Source: a virus. From it: DNA of 29,892 bases. Each line of letters opens with the position of its first letter. Positions within the stretch are counted from its first letter, which is position 1. The translations under genes were made by a program, and so were the position numbers. This document shows, piece by piece, positions 2,829 through 29,892 of this stretch. The notes under the pieces were generated by a model. The model was not told the origin of the DNA, made no database searches, and was given only the letters and a program-made list of their open reading frames with translations. Location: the UHGV virus genome UHGV-0256341. One strand, given 5' to 3'.

Positions 2829-2849
2829 CTCCTTGAATAAAAATCGGGG

Positions 2850-8158: not shown

Positions 8159-8204
8159 AGATATATGATGACAGCTGAAAACTTGTTTATAACTTCTTGC
8201 AAAT

Positions 8205-8222: not shown

Positions 8223-8261
8223 AATTGATAAAAGGATAAAAAACAACCAATAGGTGGATAA

Positions 8262-9068: not shown

Positions 9069-9456
9069 GACCCAACAAACGACGCTCTGCGTAACGCACT
9101 TCCGGTCCTTTGCGGCTGACGCGATCGCGCAGGCCATAATGGTGAACGCGAGCAATGCGCTGCACCTTACTTTCAAACTGTACGCTGGCAGAGTCGGCGC
9201 TGGCGGCGGTTTTCAGGTATTTGGTGGTGCGCAGCTTTGCAAACATCTGACGTTTGATGCGGCCTTTTTTACTGCGCGCCGTGACCTTGCGCGGTTCATA
9301 ACTGCTGCCATCTGGATTGCGCTGCATCCTGATATTCTGCTGCTGTGTCCGGCGCAGTTCCTGCGCCAGCTGGCGCATCATGCGGCTTCTTGCGACTGGT
9401 TCCAGATTCGCCAGTAAGGCACTAAGCCAGTCGTCCACCTTCTGCAGTTCAGCCAC
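9010..9456 (-). CDS. S: Tail completion protein, P2 gpS-like
   Basis: 148 aa in the R-S order; its last ~20 codons lie inside the AT-rich insertion. Confidence 0.8.
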   Translation of the reverse strand: MAELQKVDDWLSALLANLEPVARSRMMRQLAQELRRTQQQNIRMQRNPDGSSYEPRKVTARSKKGRIKRQMFAKLRTTKYLKTAASADSASVQFESKVQRIARVHHYGLRDRVSRKGPEVRYAERRLLGLNGESYVLTRDILNRFLLS

Positions 9457-11878: not shown

Positions 11879-12529
11879 TCAGCGGCTGTCATTGCGCAGT
11901 CTGCGCTCCAGCTGCTGTTTGTCTTTTTTCACGCCACAGCGGGGATCGAGCTGTAACGCATGGTTGAGATGATTAAGGGCGGAAGCCGGGTTGCTTTCAC
12001 TCAGGACAGCGCCAATCGCTTTATGCAGACGCGCCCGTGACTGGTCCGGCATATCCAGACCGTCTGTCAGCTCCAGCGTCTGCAGCAACAGATCGGCATC
12101 AAAGCCGGTGGCGGCAAGCATTGCGCTCTGCGCCGCGTCTGCCATTTCCTCTGCCAGCACGGTCTGCACGTTGCGGTTACCCAGCGGCATCACCCAGCCA
12201 TGACGCAGGGCATGACGCCCGATCTCCAGCGCCCCGGCATAATCTCCGGCATCAATGCGCCACAGCATCACGTACATCAGCACGTCATCCTGTTGAGCGC
12301 CTCCGGCAGCCAGGACGCCCTCCGCCCAGGCGGCATATTTCGGCAGCAGCTCCACCTTGATTTCCGCTTTTTTCACCGTGGACTGAACGCCCTTGAGACG
12401 GCGGCGGTCTTCCGCCAGTTGCAGCAGCATCAGGTCATAGCCCGACGCGTGGCGAACGCTGCCGCCCTCGCGGGCGGCCTGTTCAGCCTGAACGCGCAGG
12501 CGATGCTGCCGTGCGGGACTCAGGCTCAT
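11879..12529 (-). CDS. M: Terminase endonuclease (small) subunit, P2 gpM-like
   Basis: 216 aa downstream of the capsid gene. Confidence 0.8.
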   Translation of the reverse strand: MSLSPARQHRLRVQAEQAAREGGSVRHASGYDLMLLQLAEDRRRLKGVQSTVKKAEIKVELLPKYAAWAEGVLAAGGAQQDDVLMYVMLWRIDAGDYAGALEIGRHALRHGWVMPLGNRNVQTVLAEEMADAAQSAMLAATGFDADLLLQTLELTDGLDMPDQSRARLHKAIGAVLSESNPASALNHLNHALQLDPRCGVKKDKQQLERRLRNDSR

Positions 12530-14583: not shown

Positions 14584-16350
14584 ATGAACACCACACTGAC
14601 ACCCGCAGATCTCGATCCCCGTCGGCAGGCCATGCTGCTGTACTTTCAGGGATACCGCGTAGCCCGCATTGCTGAAATGCTGGGCGAGAAAGTTGCAACC
14701 GTTCACAGCTGGAAAAAACGCGACAAGTGGGGTGACTATGGGCCGCTGGATCAGATGCAGCTCACCACCGCCGCACGCTACTGCCAGCTCATTATGAAGG
14801 AGCACAAAGAAGGGAAAGATTTCAAAGAGATTGACCTGCTGGCGCGCCAGTCGGAGCGCCATGCGCGGATCGGCAAGTTTAACAATGGCGGCAACGAAGC
14901 CGACTTAAACCCTAACGTCGCCAACCGCAACAAAGGCCCGCGTCGTCAGCCGGAAAAGAACGTTTTCACCGATGAACAGATTGAGAAGCTGGAAGAAATC
15001 TTCCATTCCTCCATGTTCAACTACCAGCGCCACTGGTGGGAAGCCGGAAAAACCAACCGCATCCGCAACCTGCTGAAGTCACGCCAGATCGGCGCGACCT
15101 TCTATTTTGCCCGTGAAGCCCTGATTGACGCCCTGCTAACCGGGCGTAACCAGATTTTCCTTTCCGCCAGCAAGGCACAGGCCCACGTCTTTAAGCAGTA
15201 CATCATCGACTTCGCCAAAGAAGTGGAGGTGGAGCTGAAAGGCGATCCGATAGTGCTTCCTAACGGGGCCACGCTGTACTTCCTCGGCACCAATGCCCGC
15301 ACGGCCCAGAGTTACCACGGCAACCTGTATCTGGATGAATATTTCTGGATACCGAAATTCCAGGAGCTGCGCAAAGTGGCTTCCGGTATGGCTATTCACA
15401 AAAAATGGCGACAAACCTATTTTTCCACGCCATCCAGCCTGACACACAGTGCTTATCCGTTCTGGTCCGGTGCGCTGTTCAACCGTGGGCGCAACAAAGC
15501 CGACAAGGTGGACATCGACCTGTCCCACAGCAATCTGGCCCCCGGCCTGCTGTGCACAGACGGGCAATACCGCCAGATAGTCACCGTGGAAGATGCGGTG
15601 CGCGGCGGCTGTAACCTGTTCGACCTCGACCAGCTACGCATGGAGTACAGCCCGGACGAATACCAGAACCTGCTGATGTGCGAGTTCGTGGACGATCTCG
15701 CGTCCGTGTTCCCGCTCAGCGAGCTGCAAGCGTGCATGGTGGACAGTTGGGAAGTCTGGACCGACTTTCATGCACTGGCCCTGCGCCCGTTTGGCTGGCG
15801 CGAAGTGTGGATCGGTTATGACCCGGCAAAAGGTACGCAGAACGGCGACAGTGCCGGATGCGTGGTGGTGGCACCGCCAGCCGTGCCGGGTGGTAAGTTC
15901 CGCATTCTTGAGCGTCACCAGTGGCGCGGGATGGACTTCCGCGCCCAGGCTGACGCCATCAAAAAACTGACCGAGCAGTACAACGTGACCTACATCGGCA
16001 TCGACTCGACAGGTGTCGGCCACGGGGTTTACGAGAACGTGAAAGCGTTTTTTCCAGCCGTCCGGGAGTTTGTCTACAACCCCAACGTTAAAAACGCCCT
16101 GGTACTCAAGGCCTACGACATTATCAGTCACCGTCGTCTGGAGTTTGACGCCGGACACACCGACATAGCGCAGTCATTTATGGCAATCCGTCGCGCCACC
16201 ACCGCCAGCGGCAACCGCCCAACCTATGAAGCCAGCCGCAGCGAAGAAGCCAGCCATGCCGATCTGGCCTGGGCAACAATGCACGCACTGTTTAACGAAC
16301 CGCTGCAGGGCGAGTCCGCCAATACCAGCAATATTGTGGAGATTTTTTGA
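14584..16350 (+). CDS. P: Terminase large (ATPase) subunit, P2 gpP-like
   Basis: 588 aa, divergent from O and followed by the portal gene. Confidence 0.9.
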   Translation: MNTTLTPADLDPRRQAMLLYFQGYRVARIAEMLGEKVATVHSWKKRDKWGDYGPLDQMQLTTAARYCQLIMKEHKEGKDFKEIDLLARQSERHARIGKFNNGGNEADLNPNVANRNKGPRRQPEKNVFTDEQIEKLEEIFHSSMFNYQRHWWEAGKTNRIRNLLKSRQIGATFYFAREALIDALLTGRNQIFLSASKAQAHVFKQYIIDFAKEVEVELKGDPIVLPNGATLYFLGTNARTAQSYHGNLYLDEYFWIPKFQELRKVASGMAIHKKWRQTYFSTPSSLTHSAYPFWSGALFNRGRNKADKVDIDLSHSNLAPGLLCTDGQYRQIVTVEDAVRGGCNLFDLDQLRMEYSPDEYQNLLMCEFVDDLASVFPLSELQACMVDSWEVWTDFHALALRPFGWREVWIGYDPAKGTQNGDSAGCVVVAPPAVPGGKFRILERHQWRGMDFRAQADAIKKLTEQYNVTYIGIDSTGVGHGVYENVKAFFPAVREFVYNPNVKNALVLKAYDIISHRRLEFDAGHTDIAQSFMAIRRATTASGNRPTYEASRSEEASHADLAWATMHALFNEPLQGESANTSNIVEIF

Positions 16351-17375
16351 TGGGAAAGAGTAAGAAAAACCGCGCTGCGGCGACGAACCAGATCCAGCAT
16401 AAAAACCAAACTTCAGCCGAAGCATTCAGCTTCGGTGATCCCGTTCCTGTTCTGGACCGCCGCGAATTACTGGACTATGTGGAATGCGTAAAGATGGACC
16501 GCTGGTATGAGCCACCCGTAAGTTTTGACGGACTGGCGCGAACATTCCGCGCCGCCGTACACCACAGTTCACCGATTGCAGTAAAGTGCAACATTCTGAC
16601 CAGCACCTACATCCCTCACCCGCTGCTCAGCCAGCAGGCGTTTTCACGTTTTGTGCAGGACTATCTGGTTTTTGGTAACGCCTACCTGGAGAAACGCACG
16701 AACCGATTCGGTGAAGTTATCGCCCTTGAGCCTGCGCTGGCAAAATACACCCGACGCGGATTAGACCTAGATACCTACTGGTTTGTGCAATACGGCATGA
16801 CCACGCAGCCGTATCAGTTCACGAAAGGCAGCATTTTTCATCTGATGGAACCGGACATCAACCAGGAGATCTACGGCCTGCCCGGCTATCTTTCTGCCAT
16901 CCCATCCGCCCTGCTCAACGAGTCCGCCACGCTGTTCCGCCGAAAGTATTACATTAACGGTAGTCATGCAGGCTTCATCATGTACATGACCGATGCCGCG
17001 CAGAACCAGGAAGATGTGAACAACCTCCGCAATGCGATGAAAAGTGCCAAAGGCCCTGGCAACTTCCGCAACCTGTTTATGTACTCGCCTAATGGTAAAA
17101 AAGACGGACTTCAGATTATCCCGTTGTCAGAAGTCGCAGCGAAGGATGAGTTTCTGAATATCAAGAACGTGAGCCGTGATGACATGATGGCGGCACACCG
17201 CGTGCCGCCGCAAATGATGGGAATTATGCCTAATAATGTCGGGGGGTTTGGGGATGTGGAGAAGGCTAGCAAGGTATTCGTAAGAAACGAATTGATGCCC
17301 CTGCAGAAACGATTGCAGGAACTAAATAACTGGTTGGACGAAGAAGTGCTCAATTTTTCAACCTATGAGCTTTAG
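16347..17375 (+). CDS. Q: Portal protein, P2 gpQ-like
   Basis: 342 aa; its start overlaps the P stop. Confidence 0.9.
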   Translation: MMGKSKKNRAAATNQIQHKNQTSAEAFSFGDPVPVLDRRELLDYVECVKMDRWYEPPVSFDGLARTFRAAVHHSSPIAVKCNILTSTYIPHPLLSQQAFSRFVQDYLVFGNAYLEKRTNRFGEVIALEPALAKYTRRGLDLDTYWFVQYGMTTQPYQFTKGSIFHLMEPDINQEIYGLPGYLSAIPSALLNESATLFRRKYYINGSHAGFIMYMTDAAQNQEDVNNLRNAMKSAKGPGNFRNLFMYSPNGKKDGLQIIPLSEVAAKDEFLNIKNVSRDDMMAAHRVPPQMMGIMPNNVGGFGDVEKASKVFVRNELMPLQKRLQELNNWLDEEVLNFSTYEL

Positions 17376-17384
17376 TTTTAAAAC

Positions 17385-17402
17385 GAAGACCATTAGGTCT
17401 TC
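17385..17402. terminator. Hairpin between convergent Q and retron RT (possible bidirectional terminator)
   Basis: GAAGACC-ATTA-GGTCTTC stem-loop with T-rich flank; the RT stop codon lies inside the stem. Confidence 0.45.
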
Positions 17403-18355
17403 GCTTTATTTAAAGGGTTCTTTCCATATTTTTTTTCTAATTTGCTAATATAAGTTATTAATCTTCTATGGCTTTTTGAATCCACACTTAAAATAAATGA
17501 CAACCATCCCCTAACGTGTTCTATCTCAGAAGACTTACCGCAAAATATATGATGTATCTTTGCTCTAATTTCTTTATATTTTTCTCTACCTATCCCAACT
17601 TTCTCTTGTGAAATAACTAAACCTGTAACTTTCCTCTGACTACGAGGCCCACTAATACAAGTTTTTTTTGAGTTAATAACCAATCCTTCACTTGGGATTA
17701 TAGAAAATAAAAAATCACGTGCTTTAACAACCTTTTTCATAGACTGTGCAGATAAGGTGAGATCATCGGCATATCTCGTATATATCAAGCCCCGACTACC
17801 TGCATAACCCTGAATACGATAATCAAGTTTAGAACATATTAGATTAGCTAATTTAGGTGATGATGGAGCACCTTGTGGTAGCAGATTTTTATAACAACAT
17901 ATTTTTGTCAAAACTGAAGATATTAGTCGATTATAACCAAGAGAATGGAACACTCCAAAAACTTTGTTAGCAGTTAAACTTGGGAAAAAATCCTCCAAAT
18001 CAATATTCAGTATAAAGTTTGCCCCAATATGCGGGGTAGCATTATTCAAAATAGATTGGTGCTTTTCAAATCCAATAGAAAAAGGAGATGACGACAGTTT
18101 ATCTAAAATGTTACGTAGAACCCATCCTTGTAAGGCTTTAAGTTCTCGAGAAGGTTGGTAAATGGTTCTCATTCTCTTCTCTGGGCCTTTCTTTTCTACA
18201 GTGTAGATCCTATAGCGAAAATCAGCTGTATAGATTAACAACCGAAGTGTTTCAACAGATATGCGAGTCGCCTTAGACATGTCATGCAAATTGTTCATGA
18301 CAGGTAGGCCGAGATTTCTCAATCTAAAAGTGTTCAAATATTCAGCGGATTTCAT
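17393..18355 (-). CDS. ret: Retron-type reverse transcriptase (matches retron Ec86/Eco1 RT from memory)
   Basis: 320 aa with retron hallmarks: NAxxH (NATPH), LEDFFPS, PQGAPSSPKLANL, catalytic YADD and the VTG motif. It lies immediately 3' of an msr-msd element. Confidence 0.95.
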   Translation of the reverse strand: MKSAEYLNTFRLRNLGLPVMNNLHDMSKATRISVETLRLLIYTADFRYRIYTVEKKGPEKRMRTIYQPSRELKALQGWVLRNILDKLSSSPFSIGFEKHQSILNNATPHIGANFILNIDLEDFFPSLTANKVFGVFHSLGYNRLISSVLTKICCYKNLLPQGAPSSPKLANLICSKLDYRIQGYAGSRGLIYTRYADDLTLSAQSMKKVVKARDFLFSIIPSEGLVINSKKTCISGPRSQRKVTGLVISQEKVGIGREKYKEIRAKIHHIFCGKSSEIEHVRGWLSFILSVDSKSHRRLITYISKLEKKYGKNPLNKAKT

Positions 18356-18361
18356 GAAAGT

Positions 18362-18530
18362 TGCGCACCCTTACGTCAGAAAAAACGGGTTTCCTGGTTG
18401 GCTCGGAGAGCATCAGGCGATGCTCTCCGTTCCAACAAGGAAAACAGACAGTAACTCAGATTCAATGCAGGATGCCGAAACAACATCCAGAGGTTGACCT
18501 TAATGATAAACCTCTCGCTAAGGGTGCGCA
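18362..18530 (-). ncRNA. msr-msd: Retron msr-msd non-coding RNA (msDNA template)
   Basis: Perfect 12-bp terminal inverted repeats (TGCGCACCCTTA ... TAAGGGTGCGCA on the minus strand) flank a long internal palindrome (GGAGAGCATC...GATGCTCTCC); the sequence matches the Ec86 ncRNA as I remember it. Confidence 0.9.
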
Positions 18531-19441
18531 TACGGAATCTTATCATAGTTAAATGTTGATTTTCTACGGTTTTCAAAATTCATAATCTCAAGCCGCAATC
18601 GGTCAAGTGTCTTTCTATCAAAGACGCTCCTAACATAGCTAGCCCCCAAAGCAGTGACCTGATAACCATCAGTCATTTGAAGTATTTTTCGTTCATTTAT
18701 TAGACGAGAAACAACGGATCTAACAATAATTTTAGATAAAACATCATCTTGCTTTATCGCTTTAAAAGCTAGTTCACACAGTGTGCGGTAGTTGACACTA
18801 TCCAGTAAATAGATACAAGGCAATAGAAACCGCTCTGCGTATAATATATTTCCAATATCTTTTGATACTTTATTTTCTTTCCTAACCTTCTTAATAGATG
18901 CCATTAATTTTTTATATAATCGTAATTTTCTGGCAACATCAATGGATGAATCACACATTTCTTTTAGTTCATTTGAACTACAACGCAAAACAGATTTTGA
19001 ATTAAACTTACGCAACAGGCGAACAGGACCATAGTTAATAAAGCTACGTTTTGATTTAAATTTTGCATCTTGAATGCAAATCAACTTTCTCCTTAAGTTT
19101 TCATTATTAGAGAACGCACCAAGCTCTGTGAAAGACCCCGGACTTTCAGGAAATAAAATTATTACATCGACAGCTTCAGCCAGAATATTTTCTAAACTTA
19201 AAAGGCTATGCTGCCCTTGACCAGCCAAAAGATCATCAAATAGATCTTCTGGATAAAATATATCAACATCACTGAACTTTGCTAAAAATTGTGATAATTG
19301 ATGACGCCAAGATTGATGATTAGCAACGTCACCACCACATAGAAAAATGGTTATTTTAATATTAGCTCCTCGATAGAAGCCTTTCTTTGTGAGATGTCCT
19401 ATAAGCTGTTGTTGCTGCTCATCGGTAAATTTTTTATTCAT
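18518..19441 (-). CDS. Retron effector protein (NDT-like / DNA-binding type, as in retron Eco1)
   Basis: 307 aa encoded immediately upstream of msr-msd in the same operon. The N-terminal half has a Rossmann-like glycine-rich pattern consistent with a nucleoside deoxyribosyltransferase-like fold; the C-terminal half is basic. Confidence 0.8.
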   Translation of the reverse strand: MNKKFTDEQQQQLIGHLTKKGFYRGANIKITIFLCGGDVANHQSWRHQLSQFLAKFSDVDIFYPEDLFDDLLAGQGQHSLLSLENILAEAVDVIILFPESPGSFTELGAFSNNENLRRKLICIQDAKFKSKRSFINYGPVRLLRKFNSKSVLRCSSNELKEMCDSSIDVARKLRLYKKLMASIKKVRKENKVSKDIGNILYAERFLLPCIYLLDSVNYRTLCELAFKAIKQDDVLSKIIVRSVVSRLINERKILQMTDGYQVTALGASYVRSVFDRKTLDRLRLEIMNFENRRKSTFNYDKIPYAHP

Positions 19442-19464
19442 AATCTCCCCGCTTTTTTTTCTAC

Positions 19465-19493
19465 TTTATACATCAAGTTATGAATAGATCCAA
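19465..19493 (-). promoter_or_regulatory. Putative sigma70 promoter of the retron operon
   Basis: Minus strand has TTGGAT, a 17-bp spacer, then TATAAA, followed by a GGGGAGA ribosome-binding site before the effector ATG. Confidence 0.3.
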
Positions 19494-19514
19494 TCTCCAT
19501 ACCACATGGCGCGC

Positions 19515-19534
19515 GCTCGTATCCCCGCCACGCC
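19515..19534 (-). other. Putative cos site (cohesive-end core) of the P2-like phage
   Basis: Minus strand reads GGCGTGGCGGGGATACGAGC, similar to the P2/186 cohesive end (GGCGAGGCGGGGAAAGCAC in P2) as I recall it. Position is on the Q side of the genome as in P2. Confidence 0.45.
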
Positions 19535-19578
19535 TGCCCGCTTTGTGTAGTGGTTTTCATGCACCTGCATGACATAAG

Positions 19579-19603
19579 CAAAAGCCCGCCAGCTCTGGCG
19601 GGC
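19579..19603 (-). terminator. Rho-independent terminator downstream of the HNH gene
   Basis: GC-rich perfect inverted repeat GCCCGCCAG/CTGGCGGGC followed on the minus strand by TTTTGCTT. Confidence 0.5.
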
Positions 19604-19716
19604 ATCAGCAAAAACGATCCTCAAACGATCATGCGATTTCATGCGGCATAGACATGCGTTGGCAAAAATGTACGAAATACTCAGCTTATAGGAAATGGTC
19701 TTTTTCCAACCTCCAG

Positions 19717-20436
19717 TTAGCCAAAGCAGAAACCAATATTGCAATTTGAAACTCCACAGTTGTGAAATTGATGTGGACCTACTCTTAGCTTGTGTTCGTC
19801 TCCTACAATCCGAGTCCCCTTAACCAACATATCTAATCTTTCCACAATCAATCTTTCAGGCGCATCAACTTTAATAATTAAACGAGGACCTTTCCTTTTT
19901 TCTATAATAGTTATTCTAGGACCGACAACCTGAACATCCCAATGCCTTGCACTACAAACCCACTCATTCTTAATTAATTCAAGATTAACAATACCTTGAC
20001 TATCGTAAAATTTACCCGAAATAAGAAAAGCATTATTTTCTTTTTCAATGGTTAACAATGGCTCATTTTGAAACATTATTGGTACAGTACAGGATTCAAA
20101 CGTCGCACCACCAAATATTATTGTTGGATGCCTATCAGAAAAGTCCAATATATCGGCCACATTCCCTTTTTGTAAGGCTGCAGGAGATTCCATTGCTTTA
20201 ATTATTTTCTCTTTAGAGTAAAGACGTTTCGTTACTTTCGCATGGCACGTAGGACAAAGTAGTGCTATTGCATTTGGAGAGTGCTCCTTTGCATCAGCGT
20301 ATGTGGGAATTACATGCTCATACTCAACAATGGGAGAAGCACAAACAACGCAACCGAAGCCACAGCGCTGCCTTACCTCCAGTTTTACAGGTTCAGGAAT
20401 TGTTCTAGATAACCCATGCTTGTTAATAGTTGTCAT
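19717..20436 (-). CDS. HNH-endonuclease-domain protein with a C-terminal domain of unknown function
   Basis: 239 aa; N-terminal CGFGCVVC ... EYEHVIP ... NAIALLCPTCH matches the HNH zinc-finger nuclease pattern. AT-rich gene located between cos and replication gene A, where P2 has old/tin. Confidence 0.75.
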   Translation of the reverse strand: MTTINKHGLSRTIPEPVKLEVRQRCGFGCVVCASPIVEYEHVIPTYADAKEHSPNAIALLCPTCHAKVTKRLYSKEKIIKAMESPAALQKGNVADILDFSDRHPTIIFGGATFESCTVPIMFQNEPLLTIEKENNAFLISGKFYDSQGIVNLELIKNEWVCSARHWDVQVVGPRITIIEKRKGPRLIIKVDAPERLIVERLDMLVKGTRIVGDEHKLRVGPHQFHNCGVSNCNIGFCFG

Positions 20437-20558
20437 AACCTTACCTTAAAACTTCGAGAAACCTTTTATATATTGATACTATATCAACTAACGCCTCGCA
20501 CAGCTCGTTGTTCAACCTTGCTGACGCCAGAAGCAAGTTCAGACGCCAGCAACGTTTC

Positions 20559-20793
20559 TTAATGCAGCCAGCTGTCGTCTTCCCACACCTTCTGCATAAT
20601 TTTCATCACTTGCTTCCTTTCTTCGTCCAGTTGCAGTCCGGTCAGTTCCACACCGTTAGAGCTACCTTTGCGGATGCGAATTACCGTTTTTGGATACAGG
20701 GGGCGCAGATTGCGGTAAAGCTCGGATTCAAGGGCGTCCAGGGTAGACTGGCTAATCTTCTGCTCTTTATCGATCATTATTTCAATGCGCATA
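20559..20793 (-). CDS. DinI-like protein
   Basis: Start taken at the internal ATG preceded by a GAGGTG ribosome-binding site. The 78 aa product (MRIEIMIDKEQ ... VWEDDSWLH) resembles DinI in length and in N- and C-terminal motifs. Confidence 0.6.
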
Positions 20794-20802
20794 AAAGTCA
20801 CC

Positions 20803-20991
20803 TCAGCTGATGACATCCATTGAGCGGTTGTATTCGTGGGTTCTGATTTTTGCCATGAGTTCATCTGTCAGTTCAGAAACCCACTGCAAAGCCAGCCCCT
20901 TCTCTTCATCACTACACTCACTAGCCGCTACAAGTTTAAGAAAAAAATCAATGCGCTGGAGCTTCAAAGACTCCAAAAAATAGTCCTGCAT
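20803..20991 (-). CDS. Small hypothetical protein (62 aa)
   Basis: Internal ATG with a strong AGGAGG ribosome-binding site 5 nt upstream; the longer 96 aa ORF start has none. Confidence 0.45.
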   Translation of the reverse strand: MQDYFLESLKLQRIDFFLKLVAASECSDEEKGLALQWVSELTDELMAKIRTHEYNRSMDVIS

Positions 20992-21144
20992 CTTTCCTCC
21001 TATGACACCACAAGCAATACTGTATGTATAACCACTGTTTATATTTACAGTATATAATAATCTTACTGATGTAAAACGTTTTTTTACGTTCATCAGCCTG
21101 ATATGCCTGGTATTATTAAGAGCACGAATTGTTAACCCGCGTAA

Positions 21145-23559
21145 TTAATACAGGTTTCGCCACTTATCATCTTCCTGCAAACGCTGGTTCCGATAGAAGA
21201 TACGCAGGCCTGCTCCTGACGGAATACTGCCGCCGCGAAGGAGTAAATCGACCTCTTTCTCGCTGCCATCAAATCCTCTGGACTTCAGTTCATAGACGAG
21301 CTGCTGTCGCTGATGGTCTGTAATTCGCTGTTTGTAGTCTTTACGCCGTTTCGGTTTCACCAGGCGTAACCTTGCAGCTAGTTCCCGGCGCTCTTTTTTG
21401 CTCATACTGTGCAGGTAATCGTGCAACGCCTTGTCATCCATGCGGGTAATGTCCGTCCTGGTATCCCCATCAGCTGATTTGTCTTTCCCTTGTTGGTTCA
21501 AATTTTCAGCAAGGGGACAGTTATTGCCACGAGTCCAAGGGGCGCAAGCGCCCTGGTCGGCTGCCGCCTCCTGAACGTCAACGGCTTTACGAACCATTTT
21601 CCACTTCACTGCATGAGTGCAGATCTTGCCCTCTGCAATGGGTGACCAGATGCCATAAATACGAATGCCGTGATCGCCATAGGCGGTCGGCTCTTCGTTG
21701 ATTTCATAAGCGGTTCTGATGAGGTGATATTTACGGGGAACCAGTACGCCGCCCTGCTTCATGATGTAGGTGGCAAAACAACCAGCATCAGCAGCAGCCA
21801 GGATGGCATCAAGGCGCGGGTTATCCAGTACCGGCGCACCTGCTTTTTTGTCCCCCTTTTGCCTTACCGCCTGACCAGCCAGCAATCGCAGTTCACGGTA
21901 AGCCTGACGCCCCGGAATGCCAAAGAAGCGGAATTGCTGAACACGATGCAAAGACGCCCAGGCATTCACGTATTCAGCGTTATCACGCAGAGATTTACCC
22001 GTTTCCTTGCTGATCTCGCCAGCCAGACCACGCCCGTCAATGTTCTTACTGATGTATTTCGCTATGTAGCTTGTCGGCGTTCCTTTGCGCGGGTTAATCA
22101 GCTCAGACTTAAAGCGCGGCCCCGTGTTATTGCCCAGCTCCTCGCGGTCTTCACGGATAGCAAACTTACGCAACAATGCTGTAATGGCGCGGCGGTCTTT
22201 TTTGCGCATGAAACACAACAGGTGCCAGTGAACTGTGCCGTCGTGATGCGGCTCAGCCACCCGCACGCCATACCAGCGCAACCCGGCTTTGTGCATCGCC
22301 TTACGAAATGCAGCAAACATACCGACCAGATAATCGCTGCTTTGTCTTACCGTCGCATTTGTCCAGGTCGGATTGGGCCTGCCGTTATTTAGCGTGGAAT
22401 GGAAACGTGACGGACAGGTGATGGTGTAGAAAACGGCGCAGTCACCGCGCATTTCCGCGATAAGCTCCAGACCTTTAACACAGGCCATCATCTCATTGCG
22501 GCGATGCGCAGGGTTGCTGCTGCTGGCGTTTACCACATCCTCCATGTCTAGCGTGTCGCCGTCTTCGTTCACCAGTTCATGAGAACGGAAAAACTCCAGC
22601 GACTTACGGCGCTGCTCACGTTTATGCAACACGGCTTCATAGCTGACATAGGGAGATGCTTTTTTGCTGACAAGGCAGACAGCACGCAACTGCTCTTCCC
22701 GCCATTCGCAACGCATCTTCCATAATTTCCGATACCACCAGTCGGCGCACAACATACGCGCCAGCGAACCCGGAATGAGTTCATAGGGCACGGGTTTACG
22801 GCGGTTTCTTTTCCGACGGAGTTGCTCAAACGCAGGCGGGATGACATCCAGACGCAGGGTTTCCGCTGCCACCCTTTCCCATGTATTGCGGATTTCTTCT
22901 GGCTTAACGTCATCGGTGGCATACAAATCGCCACAAGCGGCATCAAGGCACATACTCATATGCGCAGCTACCAGGGTGGACAGGCGTTTCACCTGATCCT
23001 GACTCATTTCAGGCAGGATCAGCAGGCCGTCCAGCCCTTCATGGCTTGCCATAAAGCGAAAAGATGCAGATAGCTGACTGTCGCGTACATGCTCCAGTCG
23101 TTCCAGACATGGCTTAATCGTCTCACGTAAATAGCGGGAATAAGCCTTTGGCCTGCCCAGGCTGCTGAAGTATTCAATACGTTGCATCAGCGGCTTGCTG
23201 ATATGGGAAGGCTGGGCGTTGACGTCCGCCAGAATGACCATATCCGGATTAAAACGCTGCTGCTCATGCGCCAGCTTTGCCCGACTAATGAGCTTATCCT
23301 GTTCCATTTCGCGCTGGACAGGATCACGGGATTCATTAAAGAAATAACGCTCCCAGACCTGATCACTCAGCGCCTCACGGCGCAGCTGTTCCTGCTCGTT
23401 ATCGGCAGCGTACAGAGTGATCAGGTTTGAAAGCGTAGAAACCGGCGCAACTTCCACCGGGTCCAGATAAGGGTTAATGGCCTTTTTCGGGCTGTTCCAT
23501 GAGAACGATGCGGCAGCTTCGTTAAAGCCGCAGCAGTTGTTCATATCGGCATGACTCAT
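21145..23559 (-). CDS. A: Replication initiation endonuclease, P2 gpA-like (rolling-circle initiator)
   Basis: 804 aa, the largest early gene; start overlaps the stop of the upstream methyltransferase gene. Confidence 0.85.
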
Positions 23560-24413
23560 GCATGTACTCCGTACACGGCAGAACTATCCACGCCACGCGA
23601 ATAATCAAATCCCACCCAGCAGCGCGGCCCGGAAACAGCAATGATTTCTGTTGCTGATTTACCCTCGCCAGCTGCCACACCGATGCTGCGTTTTGCCTTG
23701 ATGTAGTGGTGAGTAAAATTGCGATACAGCGAACGGATCAGGGATGTGTCACTGTTAGAAACAATGACCGGATGTCCTTCTGATGACCGATGTTCAAGAA
23801 CAGATGCCAGGTGATACTGGTCATCTTCAGTGAAGCCGTCAGTGTGATAGCCGGAAAACGTACCGTCATACGGCGGATCGCAATACACCACATCCCCCGC
23901 CTTCAACATCGCCAGCGTTTCATCAAAGCTGGCGCAGATAAACGTTGCTCGCTGGGCCTTTTCTGCAAATGCGCGAATTTCTTTTTCAGGGAAATACGGA
24001 TTTTTATAATTACCGTAGGGAATGTTGAAATGCCCGCTCTTGTTATAGCGACATAAACCACGGTAACCGTGACGATTGAGATACAGGAAATATACCGCTT
24101 TCATGAAATCAGTAATTTCAGTTGAGTAATTAAACTCCTGCCTTATGTTGTAATAAGCCATCTCCCTGTTTGCGATCTCAAATAAAACTCTGGCGCGAGA
24201 TATAAACGATTCACAATCAGCGGCAACCTTTTTATAGAGGTTGATTAAATCAGGATTAATATCCGCAACCAGATAGCTGGGATAATCCGTCTCCATCATC
24301 ACAGCACAGGAACCCGCGAAAGGTTCAACCAGTCGCGGGCCAGCAGGAAGATGTTTTTTTAGTTCGGACATTATGGCAGTTTTATTTCCCGCCCATTTCA
24401 GGATGGTGCTCAT
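23556..24413 (-). CDS. DNA adenine methyltransferase (Dam-like, N6-adenine)
   Basis: Motif I FAGSC and motif IV DPPY are present. Start taken at the internal Met of [11 protein letters not shown], which abuts the TraR-like stop; the longer ORF starts at 24473. Confidence 0.85.
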
Positions 24414-24637
24414 ACAGCACCTCCGTTGTAATGTTTGCCTTTCAGCTCTGCGATTTCCTGACAGGTAATGCAAAGCTGCACACCCGGAATGGCACGGCGG
24501 CGTGCTGGCGTAATTGGCGCTTCACACTCAATGCAAAGCACGCGGGACACGCCCGGCGTTTTGGCACGGGCAGCACGGATATGGCGTTGGCGTTCTTCTT
24601 CAACGCGCTGCTGTACGAGATCCATTGCATCAGCCAT
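24410..24637 (-). CDS. DksA/TraR-family C4 zinc-finger protein
   Basis: 75 aa with CxxC ... CxxC (CIECEAP ... CITCQ) and a coiled N-terminus. Confidence 0.7.
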   Translation of the reverse strand: MADAMDLVQQRVEEERQRHIRAARAKTPGVSRVLCIECEAPITPARRRAIPGVQLCITCQEIAELKGKHYNGGAV

Positions 24638-25279: not shown

Positions 25280-25476
25280 TTGTTCCCCCGTTTTTTCGTA
25301 GATAGTTCTGCCAGCAATTCATCTTGTGAACGGCACGGATGCCAGCGTTTACCATCCTCCCCCATGATCCAGCCGTGACCCGCTGAATGAATCTGCGCCC
25401 TGAATTCTGGTAAAAAACATTATCGTAAATTACCATTTCTTTCAACAGCTTACTAGTAAACAAGAAGTTAGCCTCC

Positions 25477-27162
25477 GTGAATATAAACGTCGCCGAATTG
25501 TTAAATGGGAATTACATTCTGTTATTATTTGTGGTCCTCGCGCTTGGGCTATGTCTCGGAAAGTTACGACTTGGTTCGATCCAACTGGGTAATTCCATTG
25601 GCGTTTTAGTCGTATCGCTGTTATTAGGCCAACAACATTTCAGCATTAACACCGATGCGCTTAATCTTGGCTTTATGCTGTTTATTTTCTGTGTTGGGGT
25701 TGAAGCCGGACCGAACTTTTTTTCCATTTTTTTTCGCGATGGGAAAAATTACCTAATGTTAGCACTGGTGATGGTTGGCAGTGCGCTGGTGATCGCCTTA
25801 GGGTTAGGTAAGCTGTTTGGCTGGGATATTGGCCTGACGGCCGGTATGTTAGCAGGCTCTATGACGTCGACACCGGTTCTGGTCGGTGCTGGCGATACAC
25901 TGCGTCATTCCGGCATGGAAAGCAGGCAGCTCTCACTGGCACTGGATAATCTGAGCCTCGGGTATGCCTTAACCTATTTAATCGGTCTGGTGAGTTTGAT
26001 TGTTGGTGCGCGTTACTTGCCGAAATTGCAGCATCAGGACTTACAGACCAGCGCCCAGCAAATCGCCCGCGAACGTGGCCTGGACACTGATGCCAACCGT
26101 AAGGTTTATTTACCGGTGATCCGCGCCTATCGCGTCGGCCCGGAGCTGGTGGCCTGGACCGACGGCAAAAATCTGCGTGAACTGGGTATTTATCGACAAA
26201 CCGGCTGCTACATTGAACGTATTCGACGTAACGGGATTCTGGCAAATCCAGACGGTGATGCCGTGCTACAAATGGGCGATGAAATAGCGTTGGTAGGCTA
26301 TCCCGACGCCCATGCCCGACTCGATCCCAGCTTCCGTAACGGTAAAGAAGTTTTCGATCGTGACCTTCTCGACATGCGTATCGTCACTGAAGAAGTGGTC
26401 GTTAAAAACCATAACGCTGTAGGTAAACGTCTCGCACAACTGAAGTTGACCGATCACGGTTGCTTCCTTAACCGCGTCATTCGTAGCCAGATTGAGATGC
26501 CGATAGATGACAACGTCGTGCTTAACAAAGGTGACGTTTTACAAGTCAGCGGTGATGCCCGTCGCGTAAAAACCATCGCCGATCGCATCGGCTTTATCTC
26601 GATTCACAGCCAGGTCACTGACCTGCTGGCATTTTGCGCCTTCTTTGTTATTGGGCTGATGATCGGGATGATCACCTTCCAGTTCAGCACATTCAGTTTC
26701 GGCATGGGGAACGCTGCCGGGTTGTTATTCGCCGGAATTATGCTGGGCTTTATGCGTGCTAACCACCCGACCTTCGGTTACATTCCGCAGGGTGCATTAA
26801 GCATGGTGAAAGAGTTCGGCTTGATGGTGTTTATGGCAGGCGTTGGTCTGAGCGCCGGTAGCGGTATTAATAACGGCCTGGGCGCGATTGGCGGTCAGAT
26901 GTTGATTGCCGGATTGATTGTCAGTCTGGTGCCCGTGGTTATCTGTTTCTTGTTCGGTGCTTATGTATTGCGAATGAACCGCGCGCTGTTGTTCGGCGCA
27001 ATGATGGGCGCACGTACCTGCGCGCCGGCAATGGAGATCATCAGTGATACAGCTCGCAGTAACATCCCGGCGCTGGGCTATGCGGGCACCTATGCAATCG
27101 CCAACGTCCTGCTGACGCTGGCAGGGACAATCATCGTCATGGTATGGCCAGGATTAGGATAA
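25477..27162 (+). CDS. ybjL: Putative transport protein of the AAE (YbjL/YidE) family
   Basis: 561 aa with multiple transmembrane segments flanking a central soluble region; GC content is typical of the host chromosome; the sequence looks like E. coli YbjL from memory. Confidence 0.8.
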
Positions 27163-27274
27163 AACTGAAGTTGCCCTGAAAATGAAATTTTTTTGCACAA
27201 CCGCAGAACTTTTCCGCAGGGCATCAGTCTTAATTAGTGCCACTGCTTTTCTTTGATGTCCCCATTTTGTGGAG

Positions 27275-27320
27275 CCCATCAACCCCGCCATTTCGGTTCA
27301 AGGTTGATGGGTTTTTTGTT
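27275..27320 (+). terminator. Putative rho-independent terminator
   Basis: CCCATCAACC ... GGTTGATGGG stem followed by TTTTTTGTT. Confidence 0.4.
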
Positions 27321-27397
27321 GCCTGAAATTTATGCTCTTTAAAATCATGATGTTAGAAGCACTGTTTTTTAACGATGGCGACAAAATGGCGGCAGCG

Positions 27398-27616
27398 TCA
27401 AAGAGAGAGCGCCACCTGTCCTGATTTCATTGGATGCGGCTGAACCGGATTTGACTCTTTTGGCGTTGCAATCGAACGAACAAAAGTTTCATGAGTAACA
27501 AAAGTATGGCTGCAGTTAATGTTCTGGCACTGGTTGTAACGCTCTTTGGTCAATGAAGATACCTGAAAACTGCTGCGAGTATGGGCGGCACTTCCACACA
27601 GTGGGCAAATCATCAT
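27398..27616 (-). CDS. ogr: Late transcription activator, Ogr-like zinc-finger protein
   Basis: ORF is 27398..27649. The likely start is the Met of MICPLCGSAAH, giving about 72 aa; the CPLC ... CQN.NC pattern matches P2 Ogr. Confidence 0.85.
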   Translation of the reverse strand: MMICPLCGSAAHTRSSFQVSSLTKERYNQCQNINCSHTFVTHETFVRSIATPKESNPVQPHPMKSGQVALSL

Positions 27617-27706
27617 TTTTCGAGTTCTCCCCATTTTTGCTAAATTCACAATAATGATACCGCATTATTCCATTTTGAAAACTTAAAAGTTCTCCATTGC
27701 GAAGAA

Positions 27707-28807
27707 TCATTCCATTTCGAAATCATCAATCTTCACTTCAAGCTCCAGACTGGTCGTAAAACCGTTATCCGGGCTGACAGTATGCGTCAGGGTGGTAATA
27801 GTCCATTCCGCATCATCTATCGGCTGTTTAAAGCCACTGACTTTCACTGGCATTTCCGTGTAGAGATCTGCCCGCCCTTCCGCCAGTTGTAGCGAGAATG
27901 ACGCAACGCCGCGTTGCAGGCGTTCCCACTGCATTTTCGCCGCTCGTTCGGCGTTGCTCCGGTTGGCATAAGTGCGATTAAGTACCAGCACGTTTTCATC
28001 CGTACCCACCAGGTAATCGCCCTGCTTCGCTTCCGGCTCTTTCTTCTGCTTCTTAGTTCTGCGCTTACGCTTCACCGTGGTGCTTTCTTTCTTCGCAGGT
28101 TCGCGGGTATGCAACCAGCTGGCAATTACGCCCGTGTAGGCTCCGCGATCTGCCAGGGTAAATCGGTGACTGTCGCCGTCCTTGCGTGTGATAGTGATCA
28201 CTGGCAGAGGTTTACCAGTGGCGCTTTTGCCCTGCCCCTGCCTGATGAATAACAGATTGCCATTTTTCACCGACGCGATGGCACCGTACTGTCGCGCCAG
28301 CCGCATCAGAAAACTGCCGTCACTCTCATTAGTCTGGTCTATATGCTCCACGGGCTTATCCGACAGGTCTTTACCCAGTGCCATCTTCAGCTTGTGCCGC
28401 GCGGCTATTTCCTTCACCACTTCCCCGACGGTGGTCTTATGCCACGATTTTTCACGGCGGGTATTCAGCGTTTCCCGAAAATCAGCACTTCGCGCCCGGA
28501 TAGTCAGGCGGTCCGGTGCGCCAGTGTGTTCAATCTCGTCCACTGTGAATGCCCCTTTCGGGAAAAGCGGCTGCCCCTTCCAGCCCAGCGCCAGCGTAAT
28601 GACCGCACCACGGCGCGGCAGCACGATTTTTCCATCGGCGTCGTCCAGCTCCAGATCAAGCTGGTCCGCTTCAAAGCCCCGGTTATCCGTCAGCGTCAAA
28701 CTCATCAGGCGGTTATCCAGCACAGTGGTGATATCCCTGCCCTCAATACTGATGCTGAATGCGGGAGTTTTGTTGCCTTTGTTAAGCAGTTCTGAGCTGA
28801 AATTCAC
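27707..28807 (-). CDS. D: Tail protein D, P2 gpD-like
   Basis: 366 aa between U and ogr. Confidence 0.85.
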   Translation of the reverse strand: MNFSSELLNKGNKTPAFSISIEGRDITTVLDNRLMSLTLTDNRGFEADQLDLELDDADGKIVLPRRGAVITLALGWKGQPLFPKGAFTVDEIEHTGAPDRLTIRARSADFRETLNTRREKSWHKTTVGEVVKEIAARHKLKMALGKDLSDKPVEHIDQTNESDGSFLMRLARQYGAIASVKNGNLLFIRQGQGKSATGKPLPVITITRKDGDSHRFTLADRGAYTGVIASWLHTREPAKKESTTVKRKRRTKKQKKEPEAKQGDYLVGTDENVLVLNRTYANRSNAERAAKMQWERLQRGVASFSLQLAEGRADLYTEMPVKVSGFKQPIDDAEWTITTLTHTVSPDNGFTTSLELEVKIDDFEME

Positions 28808-29289
28808 GACAGCAGCCCTCCCACCGTTTTACTGATATCACTTAAGGCAGACGTTGCCGTGTCCTGCAGATTATTCAGTTGCGCACTGAGATCACCGAAC
28901 ATATCGGACAGGGATTCATCCACCCGTTTGAGCGACAGGGTGAACTCAATCCGGCGCGGCATACCGTCGCGGAAAAACTCCGTTTTAGTCTGATTCAGTC
29001 CCTCAATCACATACATGCCGTAAATCGTGCCGCTGCCTTCAATCAGGGGCCATGCTTTCCCCTGTTCTGCCATCTGCTCCAGTGCCAGCAACGACAGCCT
29101 GCCGCCTGTTATCTCCGGCATAAGAACACCGGAAAGCGTCAGCATGTCGTTTTCCGGTCCCAGAAACTGCGTGGACGGACGTCGGTTTACCCGACTGTTT
29201 GCCGCATGTCGCCAGCTGCGTTGATACTGCAGTTCCTGATACGGAACGGTGCGCAGCATAAACACGTACAATCCCAGCACCATCATCAT
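28804..29289 (-). CDS. U: Tail protein U, P2 gpU-like
   Basis: 161 aa between T and D. Confidence 0.8.
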   Translation of the reverse strand: MMMVLGLYVFMLRTVPYQELQYQRSWRHAANSRVNRRPSTQFLGPENDMLTLSGVLMPEITGGRLSLLALEQMAEQGKAWPLIEGSGTIYGMYVIEGLNQTKTEFFRDGMPRRIEFTLSLKRVDESLSDMFGDLSAQLNNLQDTATSALSDISKTVGGLLS

Positions 29290-29892
29290 GCGTCGTATCC
29301 CCCCTGATCGCTGTAGTTACTCCTGGCTTTTGCCTTCAGCCTGCGTTCACGTTCATCAAGCTGGCGTGCCACCTCCCGCGCAATATCCTGCGCACTTTGT
29401 CCTGGCTGCGTCTGAATGATGATCTGCGTCGGTGCCTCAATCCGTTGAACGAGCGGCACAGTGGCTGCGCGACTCACAATTGCTTCTCCACCTTTCGCGG
29501 GAAGTGCCAAAGGGTGCAACGGTGGAAGCTCTGCTGGCGCGGCAGCAACGCCCATCATTCCGGCAACAACGGCAGCCAGTGCAGCTGTATTTCTCCGGCT
29601 GGTCACATTTGCCGGGCCGTTAACAATTTCCGGCCCGTTTTCACCGACGATGCCAAACTGCCCGCGCGGGATATACCCGCCGCTGTCATACATCCCCGCA
29701 AAGCCATATCCCCATGATGGAAAACCACCCGATGGCATCATCACTTTGCCGTCTGCATTCACCGTCGCAGGTTGCTGACGCGTCACGCTTTCCGGTAGTT
29801 TTGCCTTTGCGGCCTCTTTACTGACAATGCCGAGTTTCTCCAGCAACCAGGAAACGCCGGATTTCAGGGAGTCCAGCGGATGCATGACCATA
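29286..29892 (-). CDS. T: Tail tape measure protein, P2 gpT-like, C-terminal part only (gene runs off right edge)
   Basis: Open frame to the window edge with Ala/Gly/Pro-rich sequence; directly upstream of U. Confidence 0.7.
   Translation of the reverse strand, partial: MVMHPLDSLKSGVSWLLEKLGIVSKEAAKAKLPESVTRQQPATVNADGKVMMPSGGFPSWGYGFAGMYDSGGYIPRGQFGIVGENGPEIVNGPANVTSRRNTAALAAVVAGMMGVAAAPAELPPLHPLALPAKGGEAIVSRAATVPLVQRIEAPTQIIIQTQPGQSAQDIAREVARQLDERERRLKAKARSNYSDQGGYDA

What the first reader, a model, noticed from the sequence alone, without database searches (positions are those of the whole stretch)
19500..19540. cos-like site lies between the retron and the HNH island
The minus strand reads GGCGTGGCGGGGATACGAGC, which resembles the P2/186 cohesive-end core. 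If this is cos, the retron sits at the extreme Q-proximal end of the packaged genome and the HNH/DinI island at the opposite end, so two separate cargo loci flank cos. The putative retron promoter is immediately next to it.
Basis: partly seen in the sequence, partly recalled or inferred. Interest (0 to 1): 0.45.

Follow-up and report, generated by a model that had tools for sequence, protein, structure and literature searches.

The report
P2-family phage cos site beside retron
The flagged sequence is the DNA-packaging cut site (cos) of a P2/186-type prophage, with the well-known retron Ec86 on one side and an HNH nuclease gene on the other; this layout was published in 1996, so the finding is correct but ordinary.

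Summary
The minus strand at 19534-19515 reads GGCGTGGCGGGGATACGAGC, once in the window. In ungapped register with the annotated cos junctions of P2, 186 and P4 it matches 14-15 of the 19 cohesive-end bases. The first 13 bases are identical to 186. It matches 40-42 of 55 bases of the core around the cut. It lies between the gpA-side genes and the portal gene Q, as in P2. The same 19-mer is annotated as a putative cos site in Salmonella phage SEN8 and lies within the 59-bp putative cos feature of Escherichia phage Cartapus. It sits in a 149-bp non-coding block (19509-19657) that is about 90-95% conserved in its closest relatives among 84 matching phage records. The retron is Ec86 (Retron-Eco1), 99.3% identical to the BL21(DE3) locus. 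Dodd and Egan (1996) already reported that Ec86 and Ec67 replace the DNA between cos and the portal-gene terminator of a 186-related prophage. Rousset et al. (2022) described the gpA-gpQ hotspot next to cos. Two details need correcting. The DinI-like gene is conserved phage backbone, so only the HNH gene is cargo on that side. No consensus promoter was found between cos and the retron. Cleavage at this site has not been shown for this cos variant. Separately, the window is oddly permuted relative to reference genomes.

The parts
19516..19534 (-). Predicted 19-nt cohesive end (nicking site), 5'-GGCGTGGCGGGGATACGAG-3'. The predicted top-strand cut is between 19535 and 19534. The predicted bottom-strand cut is between 19516 and 19515.
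   Evidence: Ungapped register with the annotated cohesive ends of P2 and 186. The identical 19-mer is annotated 'putative cos site' at bases 1-19 of SEN8 KT630647, and that record ends at the base corresponding to 19535. The cut positions are inferred by homology and were not measured.
19509..19657 (-). Conserved non-coding cos block: about 123 bp on the gpA (right-end) side of the cut, the 19-nt end, and 7 bp (CGCGCGC) on the Q side.
   Evidence: Matches of 89-96% identity are confined to 19509-19657 in the 40 best of 84 phage records (Fels-2, SopEPhi, RE2010, Klebsiella and Yersinia P2-like phages). Alignment of 8 cos regions. The ORF over the block carries stop codons in relatives, and variable columns split 10/10/12 by codon position.
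19558..19657 (-). Four GCATG boxes at -123, -110, -100 and -28 from the cut (plus-strand catgc at 19653-57, 19640-44, 19630-34 and 19558-62). They are candidate terminase recognition elements.
   Evidence: Four copies against 0.13 expected from the window-wide rate. TGCAT sits at the same distances (-124/-123, -111, -101, -29) in P2, 186, P4 and Midge. The function is inferred.
19584..19603 (-). GC-rich hairpin followed by a T-run inside the cos block. It is the terminator of the LexA-box / DinI / HNH transcription unit.
   Evidence: Terminator scan. Fold energy -21.2 kcal/mol, z = -2.7. It aligns with the region of 186 that carries the annotated t95b terminator.
19717..20436 (-). HNH endonuclease gene, the only cargo gene in the gpA-side slot (about 19659-20560).
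   Evidence: Pfam HNH, E = 2.4e-05. Present at 80% coverage or more in 21 of 5,426 complete E. coli genomes. Homology to ATCC 8739 is lost between 19658 and 20561.
20559..20864 (-). DinI-like gene (called as 77 aa in most related genomes), occupying the position of 186 tum. It is conserved backbone, not cargo.
   Evidence: Pfam DinI, E = 1.3e-22. Window 20561-23442 is 96.8% identical to ATCC 8739. RefSeq labels the 186 tum products as DinI. Fels-2 DinI is noted as similar to PSP3 TumB.
21035..21050 (.). LexA-box consensus CTGTTTATATTTACAG between gene A and the small ORF / DinI / HNH genes.
   Evidence: It is the only match in the window, but 27 of 100 shuffles give at least one match, so on its own it is weak. 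Its position matches the LexA-repressed tum gene of 186.
18518..19441 (-). Retron Ec86 effector (NDT-like, type II-A). It is the first gene inside the predicted left end, 74 bp from cos.
   Evidence: PADLOC NDT_II-A, E = 2.7e-94. NCBIfam retron St85 family effector. 99.3% nucleotide identity to BL21(DE3).
18361..18531 (-). Retron msr-msd non-coding RNA gene, bounded by the inverted repeats TGCGCACCCTTA / TAAGGGTGCGCA.
   Evidence: Exact repeats at 18530-18519 (-) and 18362-18373 (+). The repeat sequence was recalled from the published Ec86 ncRNA and then found in the window. Rfam gave no hit.
17393..18355 (-). Retron Ec86 reverse transcriptase.
   Evidence: Pfam RVT_1, E = 2.9e-25. PADLOC RT_II-A, E = 7.1e-128. 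NCBIfam retron_St85_RT.
17384..17403 (+). Hairpin terminator just after the portal gene (the tQ/tW position), overlapping the last codons of the RT gene. It marks the Q-side edge of the cargo slot.
   Evidence: Terminator scan. P2 tQ and 186 tW are annotated at the equivalent place. Homology to relatives with other cargo resumes at 17337-17368.
16347..17375 (+). Portal protein gene (gpQ homologue).
   Evidence: Pfam Phage_portal.
14584..16350 (+). Terminase large subunit gene (gpP homologue), the enzyme expected to cut cos.
   Evidence: Pfam Terminase_5, Terminase_6N and Terminase_6C.
11879..12529 (-). Terminase small subunit gene (gpM homologue), the expected cos-recognition subunit.
   Evidence: Pfam Phage_term_smal, E = 2.2e-40.

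Best explanation
Window 19509-19657 is the cos (cohesive-end) packaging site of a P2/186-family (Peduoviridae, Fels-2-type) prophage. By analogy with P2, the gpM/gpP terminase encoded in the same window recognises the roughly 125 bp on the gpA side of the cut. That stretch contains four GCATG boxes at conserved distances and the AAAACC...AAGCGGGCA segment. The terminase then makes staggered nicks 19 nt apart at 19534|19535 and 19515|19516. This would give virion DNA with 5' single-stranded ends GGCGTGGCGGGGATACGAG and its complement. Almost nothing beyond 7 bp is needed on the Q side, so that side tolerates replacement. Here the roughly 160-180 bp between cos and the portal terminator is replaced by the 2.1-kb retron Ec86 cassette (effector, msr-msd, RT). 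On the other side, the slot between the DinI/Tum-like gene and the cos block holds an HNH endonuclease gene. Shown here: sequence homology, position, the extent of conservation, independent assortment of the two slots, and the identity of the retron. Inferred: the exact cut positions, terminase binding to the GCATG boxes, and whether this copy is still cut.
For: The sequence is present and unique. It aligns without gaps to the annotated cos of P2, 186 and P4: 14-15/19 and 40-42/55, with shared flanks. The identical 19-mer plus CGCGCGC is found in SEN8 (annotated putative cos), Cartapus (inside its 59-bp putative cos feature), Fels-2, MLG42, ATCC 8739 and BL21. Conservation is restricted to 19509-19657 in the listed matches among 84 phage records. 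The block is not coding. GCAT boxes lie at identical distances in five phages. The P2 gene order holds: A, DinI, cargo, cos, cargo, Q, P, then O N M on the other strand, with intact-length gpP, gpQ and gpM. Genomes sharing the HNH side diverge at +25 to +28 into other cargo or none. BL21 shares the retron side at 99.4%. [quoted passage not shown] The gpA-gpQ hotspot adjacent to cos is described in PMC9122126.
Against: No virion-end data exist for the ATACGAG variant of the cohesive end. The SEN8, Cartapus and Smp131 cos sites were all assigned by analogy. Four of the last six bases of the 19-mer differ from P2 and 186, so the bottom-strand cut could be displaced. In BL21 the same site sits in a decayed prophage and is a relic there. 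The window itself is permuted, and cII-apl-cI-int and most of the tape-measure gene T are not in it. Viability of this copy is therefore unknown.
Confidence: 0.92

Rival explanations
1. The block is a cos relic. It is homologous to cos but no longer cut, because this prophage copy is defective or rearranged. The sequence now serves only as the terminator region of the DinI/HNH operon and as a conserved flank for cassette exchange.
For: BL21 carries the same site in a clearly decayed prophage with pseudogenised A, cII and lysis genes. The window is not colinear with reference prophages and lacks cII-apl-cI-int and 2.5 kb of T.
Against: The 19-mer, the CGCGCGC and the GCATG boxes are all intact and identical to those of isolated phages (SEN8, Cartapus, MLG42). 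gpP, gpQ, gpM, gpN and gpO have the same lengths as in ATCC 8739, or within one residue for gpQ. The missing genes may simply lie outside the window.
Confidence: 0.2
2. The conservation reflects a small protein gene. The 88-aa ORF at 19478-19744 on the minus strand is called 'hypothetical protein' in several records.
For: The ORF is open in the window. An 89-aa product is called at the same place in L017 and L018, and several phage records annotate a hypothetical protein under the match.
Against: In-frame stop codons lie inside the conserved block in Cartapus, Fels-2 and ATCC 8739. Variable columns split 10/10/12 over codon positions. There is no Pfam hit. The conserved block stops 7 bp after the cohesive end, not at an ORF boundary.
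Confidence: 0.02
3. The resemblance is a chance GC-rich match with no relation to packaging.
For: None beyond the fact that only 14-15 of 19 bases match P2 and 186.
Against: There were 0 matches in 100 shuffles. A 55-bp ungapped match, conserved flanks, box spacing and gene order all agree. The first 13 bases are identical to 186.
Confidence: 0.01

Closest known systems
cos sites of coliphages P2, 186 and satellite P4 (19-nt 5' cohesive ends; 55-bp core of Ziermann and Calendar 1990)
   Same: Same position and orientation between gpA-side accessory genes and portal gene Q. The cohesive end begins GGCG(T/A)GGCGGGGA. The flanks AAGCGGGC(A/G) and GCGCGC are shared, as is TGCAT(T/G)AAAACC at -29. 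Three further GCAT boxes lie at about -124, -111 and -101. As in 186 and P4, a GC-rich hairpin lies about 50-70 bp before the cut.
   Different: The last six bases of the cohesive end are TACGAG rather than AAGCAC or AAGCAT, which is 4-5 mismatches. This is the Fels-2/SEN8-type variant, for which no experimental end determination was found.
Retron Ec86 (Retron-Eco1) locus of E. coli B / BL21, as analysed by Dodd and Egan 1996 (Virology 219:115)
   Same: 99.3-99.4% nucleotide identity from the portal gene through the retron to the end of the cos block (window 16300-19665). The order is the same: cos, effector, msr-msd, RT, portal terminator.
   Different: On the gpA side BL21 has a different gene (a 111-aa hypothetical protein) and about 10% divergence within the cos block, and its prophage is decayed. 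The window carries an HNH gene and full-length packaging genes. No complete E. coli genome in the collection combines both cassettes.
P2-like phage defence hotspot between gpA and gpQ, adjacent to cos (Rousset et al. 2022, PMC9122126; old/tin in P2)
   Same: The window's retron and HNH gene lie in exactly this interval. Retrons are among the systems listed there.
   Different: That work treats the interval as one hotspot. Here the comparison resolves it into two slots separated by the 149-bp cos block, and the two slots assort independently. The Q-side slot had already been singled out by Dodd and Egan 1996 and Nakayama 1999, as cited in PMC5694545.
Phage lambda cos (cosQ-cosN-cosB)
   Same: The logic is the same: a nicking site flanked by a terminase recognition region, cut by a two-subunit terminase to give 5' cohesive ends (established knowledge; review PMC7617512).
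   Different: There is no sequence homology. Lambda has 12-nt ends rather than 19-nt ends. Here the conserved recognition region lies almost wholly on one side, the right-end side, of the cut.

Membership tests
P2-family (Peduoviridae) cos site | GC-rich 19-nt cohesive-end sequence homologous to GGCGAGGCGGGGAAAGCAC (P2/P4) or GGCGTGGCGGGGAAAGCAT (186) | tested here: met
   14/19 (P2, P4) and 15/19 (186) in ungapped register. The first 13 bases are identical to 186.
P2-family (Peduoviridae) cos site | [quoted passage not shown] | tested here: met
   40/55, 42/55 and 41/55 against P2, 186 and P4 over -36..+19. The P2-P4 shared core (-29..+26) is recognisable in the window.
P2-family (Peduoviridae) cos site | Location between the gpA-side accessory genes and the portal gene Q, with Q and P transcribed towards cos | tested here: met
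   A 21145-23559 (-), DinI, HNH, cos 19534-19516, retron, Q 16347-17375 (+), P 14584-16350 (+). The order is the same in P2, 186, Fels-2, SEN8 and Cartapus.
P2-family (Peduoviridae) cos site | Cognate P2-type terminase (gpM small subunit, gpP large subunit) encoded in the same element | tested here: met
   Pfam Phage_term_smal at 11879-12529. Terminase_5/6N/6C at 14584-16350.
P2-family (Peduoviridae) cos site | Virion DNA actually ends here with 19-nt 5' overhangs | not testable with these tools
   This needs virion DNA. Related records assign cos by analogy only.
Retron Ec86 / Retron-Eco1 (type II-A) inserted between cos and the portal terminator (Dodd and Egan 1996) | Type II-A RT together with an NDT-like effector | tested here: met
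   PADLOC RT_II-A 7.1e-128 and NDT_II-A 2.7e-94. NCBIfam retron St85 family RT and effector, both above cut-off.
Retron Ec86 / Retron-Eco1 (type II-A) inserted between cos and the portal terminator (Dodd and Egan 1996) | msr-msd flanked by inverted repeats immediately upstream of the RT gene | tested here: met
   TGCGCACCCTTA at 18530-18519 (-) and its complement at 18362-18373, between the effector stop and the RT start.
Retron Ec86 / Retron-Eco1 (type II-A) inserted between cos and the portal terminator (Dodd and Egan 1996) | Near-identity to the E. coli B locus, and occupation of the interval between cos and the portal-gene terminator | tested here: met
   99.3-99.4% to BL21(DE3) over window 16300-19665. 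The cassette fills 17404-19508, between the hairpin at 17384-17403 and cos.
Retron Ec86 / Retron-Eco1 (type II-A) inserted between cos and the portal terminator (Dodd and Egan 1996) | Production of msDNA-Ec86 and anti-phage activity | not testable with these tools
   This is an experimental property. It is inferred from 99% identity to the studied locus.
P2-like gpA-gpQ defence hotspot (Rousset et al. 2022) | Variable gene content between conserved gpA and gpQ, adjacent to cos | tested here: met
   Eight genomes with the same HNH protein carry AIPR, PIN_12, a 554-aa protein or nothing on the Q side. ATCC 8739, Fels-2, SEN8 and Cartapus carry yet other genes.

The most novel reading that the evidence does not exclude
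The most novel reading not excluded concerns the window as a whole rather than cos. The sequence behaves as a roughly 32.4-kb circle or tandem unit. In it a blunt join at 25380|25381 links a truncated fil gene to the ybjM-ybjL intergenic region. The element has therefore lost cII-apl-cI-int and gained the host genes ybjL and rybB, while keeping cos, gene A and all late genes. That is the structure expected of an illegitimate-excision product, that is, a specialised-transducing-type genome of packageable size made by a P2-like phage. A more modest novel point about cos itself also remains open. The crossover that created this retron + HNH combination maps to a 35-bp interval (-10..+24) that coincides with the cos core. 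Terminase nicking could therefore stimulate cassette exchange.
Probability: 0.07. Interest if true: 0.45.

Novelty: already known. Interest (0 to 1): 0.12.

Why it matters
It fixes the physical map of this prophage. The retron Ec86 cassette is the first gene block inside the predicted left end of the packaged DNA, and the HNH gene is the last before the right end. The analysis also shows, at base resolution, that the published gpA-gpQ hotspot is really two independently exchangeable slots separated by a 149-bp cos block. The Q-side slot starts only 6-8 bp beyond the cohesive end. That is useful for annotating cargo in P2-like prophages and for designing cos-based packaging vectors. It does not change what is known: the placement of Ec86 next to cos was published in 1996 and the hotspot in 2022.

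Tried and rejected
(1) Rfam at gathering thresholds found only RybB and no retron msr model hit. The msr-msd gene was located from its inverted repeats instead.

(2) The consensus promoter scan of 17300-20600 gave 12 sites against 9.5 expected, and none in the 74-bp gap between cos and the retron effector. The only argument for it is positional: the hairpin at 19603-19584 should stop upstream transcripts.

(3) The idea that the 88-aa ORF across cos is a gene was rejected.

(4) I looked for experimental end data for the ATACGAG cos variant. A literature string search found only analogy-based assignments for SEN8 and Smp131. The primary papers (Dodd and Egan 1996; Ziermann and Calendar 1990) are not held and are cited second-hand.

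(5) I tried to trace the odd 25380|25381 join. It is absent as one piece from 5,426 complete E. coli genomes and from INPHARED phages. The 30-mer is absent from IMG/VR and GTDB genome contigs. The chimeric ORF product is not on record. There is no microhomology at the join. The join remains unresolved.

(6) Phage Midge's record break inside cos (GGCGTGGCG|GGGAAAGCAT) was checked as possible end evidence. It is a 186-type cos and the break is unexplained, so it was not used.

Full report
OBSERVATION. With up to three mismatches it occurs once in the window, and no shuffle produced a match. The RefSeq records of P2 and 186 annotate their cohesive ends as GGCGAGGCGGGGAAAGCAC and GGCGTGGCGGGGAAAGCAT. 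The recalled resemblance is therefore real: the first 13 bases are identical to 186.

IS IT COS? I rebuilt the circular cos junctions of P2, 186 and P4 from the record ends and compared them with the window's minus strand in ungapped register anchored on GGCG.
- The window matches 14/19, 15/19 and 14/19 bases of the cohesive end.
- It matches 40/55, 42/55 and 41/55 bases over -36..+19.
- It shares the flanks AAGCGGGC(A/G) immediately before the cut and GCGCGC after the 19-mer.

By this register the cohesive end is the 19-mer GGCGTGGCGGGGATACGAG (19534-19516).

A blastn search of phage records found 84 matching records, all P2-like phages of Salmonella, Klebsiella, Yersinia, Escherichia and Erwinia. 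In the 40 best, homology of 89-96% is confined to window 19509-19657. The identical 19-mer is annotated 'putative cos site' at bases 1-19 of Salmonella phage SEN8, whose record ends exactly at the base before the GGCG. It also lies inside the 59-bp 'putative cos site, homologous to the cos of P2 phage' at the start of Escherichia phage Cartapus. A MAFFT alignment of eight cos regions shows the 19-mer plus CGCGCGC invariant in the window, BL21, SEN8, Cartapus, Fels-2 and MLG42.

Gene order is that of P2: replication gene A, DinI-like gene, HNH, cos, retron, then portal Q and large terminase P reading towards cos. The scaffold, capsid and small terminase genes lie beyond, on the other strand.

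ANATOMY OF THE BLOCK. Conservation is strongly one-sided. About 123 bp lie on the gpA (right-end) side of the cut and only 7 bp on the Q side.
- The gpA side contains four GCATG boxes at -123, -110, -100 and -28. Only 0.13 are expected from the window-wide rate. TGCAT lies at the same distances in P2, 186, P4 and Midge, although the intervening sequence differs. I take these as candidate terminase recognition elements. This is an inference.
- Between the boxes is a GC-rich hairpin with a T-run (19603-19584; -21.2 kcal/mol, z = -2.7). It aligns with the region of 186 that carries the annotated t95b terminator.
- The 88-aa ORF that spans the block, called a gene in some records, is not real. It has in-frame stops inside the conserved block in Cartapus, Fels-2 and ATCC 8739, and variable columns split 10/10/12 across codon positions.

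THE NEIGHBOURS.
- Retron. It is Ec86 (Retron-Eco1, type II-A). The RT hits PADLOC RT_II-A at 7e-128 and the effector hits NDT_II-A at 3e-94. The msr-msd gene is bounded by TGCGCACCCTTA inverted repeats at 18530-18519 and 18362-18373. Window 16300-19665 is 99.4% identical to BL21(DE3). The effector's start codon is 74 bp from the cohesive end. The RT gene ends in the hairpin (17384-17403) that follows the portal gene, where P2 and 186 have tQ and tW.
- gpA side. DinI and the small ORF upstream of it are backbone. Window 20561-23442 is 96.8% identical to the ATCC 8739 prophage, and the pair recurs in Fels-2, SEN8, Cartapus and BL21. RefSeq labels the 186 tum products as DinI. A single LexA-box consensus lies upstream at 21035-21050, though it is weak on its own. 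Only the HNH gene, in the slot at about 19659-20560, is variable, in the position of 186 orf97 and P2 old/tin.

TWO SLOTS, ONE ANCHOR. The exact HNH protein is encoded in many public assemblies. In eight of them the DNA is identical to the window through the cos block and the 19-mer. It diverges abruptly 25-28 bases after the cut into an AIPR gene, a PIN_12 gene, a 554-aa gene, or the short 'empty' spacer before the portal gene. BL21 does the converse: it shares everything from -10 onward through the retron, is about 10% divergent in the rest of the cos block, and is unrelated beyond -125. So the two slots assort independently. The window is a mosaic whose crossover maps to -10..+24, the longest stretch the two parents share. 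No complete E. coli genome in the collection has both cassettes. 48 of 5,426 have the retron cassette, 21 have the HNH cassette, and the best retron hits stop at 19661.

MECHANISM (inferred by homology). The gpM/gpP terminase binds the right-end-side block and nicks 19 nt apart. The packaged genome would then start 5'-GGCGTGGCGGGGATACGAG, followed by 74 bp, the retron and Q. It would end with A, DinI, HNH, the terminator and the cos block. Cleavage has not been shown for the ATACGAG variant. The SEN8, Cartapus and Smp131 cos sites were all set by analogy.

PROMOTER CLAIM. The consensus scan found no sigma-70-like site between cos and the effector start. By eye, the best candidate (TTGGAT, 17-nt spacer, TATAAA) scores about 8/12 and lacks the invariant final T. 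Because the hairpin upstream should stop the DinI/HNH transcript, a promoter somewhere in 19442-19583 is plausible. It is not demonstrated.

WHAT IS KNOWN. [quoted passage not shown] Rousset et al. 2022 catalogued the gpA-gpQ hotspot 'adjacent to the cos site', retrons included (PMC9122126; see also PMC13586616). The finding is therefore correct and already known. The only additions here are the base-level slot boundaries, the box spacing and the mosaic origin of this particular combination.

AN UNRELATED ODDITY. Against ATCC 8739, window 1-25380 corresponds to gpE' through a truncated fil gene. Window 25381-29892 corresponds to the ybjM-ybjL spacer, ybjL, RybB (Rfam 105 bits), ogr, D, U and the C-terminal part of T. 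The normal order is ybjL, rybB, ogr ... T, E ... A ... fil, cII, apl, cI, int, rcdA. The window therefore behaves as part of a roughly 32.4-kb circle or tandem unit that lacks cII-apl-cI-int. The join is blunt and was not found in any collection searched. It may be an artefact of how the region was extracted and circularised. It may also be a duplication joint or an illegitimate-excision circle.

VERDICT. Novelty: already known. Interest: low.

Noticed in passing
window 25380|25381, together with the window ends (1 and 29892): The window is permuted relative to reference prophages at the rybB site. A truncated fil gene is joined bluntly to the ybjM-ybjL spacer. Both window ends fall in the tape-measure/E' region, 2.5 kb apart in ATCC 8739. 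The source looks like a roughly 32.4-kb circle or tandem unit that lacks cII-apl-cI-int and carries host ybjL and rybB. The join was not found in any collection searched.
   Followed up: partly
window 27242-27320 (+): There is a full-length RybB sRNA gene (Rfam 105 bits), followed within about 80 bp by the prophage ogr gene. The prophage family therefore sits at the 3' end of rybB, between ybjL and rcdA, as in BL21, ATCC 8739 and AF44.
   Followed up: partly
window 19558-19657 (-): Four GCATG boxes lie at -123, -110, -100 and -28 from the predicted cut. TGCAT lies at the same distances in P2, 186, P4 and Midge despite divergent spacers. They are candidate terminase recognition elements.
   Followed up: partly
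window 19500-19545 compared with L017-L024 and L005: The window is a mosaic. It is identical to HNH-carrying genomes up to +24 after the cut and to the BL21 retron locus from -10 onward. The crossover interval of 35 bp coincides with the cos core. No complete E. coli genome in the collection has both cassettes.
   Followed up: yes
window 21035-21050: A palindromic LexA-box consensus, CTGTTTATATTTACAG, lies between gene A and the small ORF / DinI-like / HNH genes. This fits a 186 tum-type SOS-inducible operon that ends at the hairpin at 19603-19584. The statistics alone are weak: 27 of 100 shuffles give a match.
   Followed up: partly
window 19478-19744 (-): An 88-aa ORF lies over the cos block, and some public annotations call it a hypothetical protein. 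Stop codons in relatives and an even spread of substitutions over codon positions show that it is not a gene.
   Followed up: yes
window 2256-3527 and 3909-4352: A Hin/Cin-type serine invertase (Resolvase + HTH_7) lies next to an oppositely oriented glycine-rich tail-fibre piece and a tail-fibre assembly gene. This looks like an invertible host-range segment. Homology to ATCC 8739 is lost or reduced here.
   Followed up: no
window 8159-9070 (ORF 8262-9068, +): A DUF6216 ORF on the opposite strand sits between baseplate gene V and the downstream tail genes. ATCC 8739 has an Sll1717-family P-loop ATPase at the same place. This is a third variable cargo slot inside the late genes.
   Followed up: no
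window 23556-24473 (-): A D12-class N6-adenine (Dam-type) orphan methyltransferase gene lies immediately upstream of replication gene A in the early operon. Its PADLOC oMTase hit is 3.5e-111.
   Followed up: no
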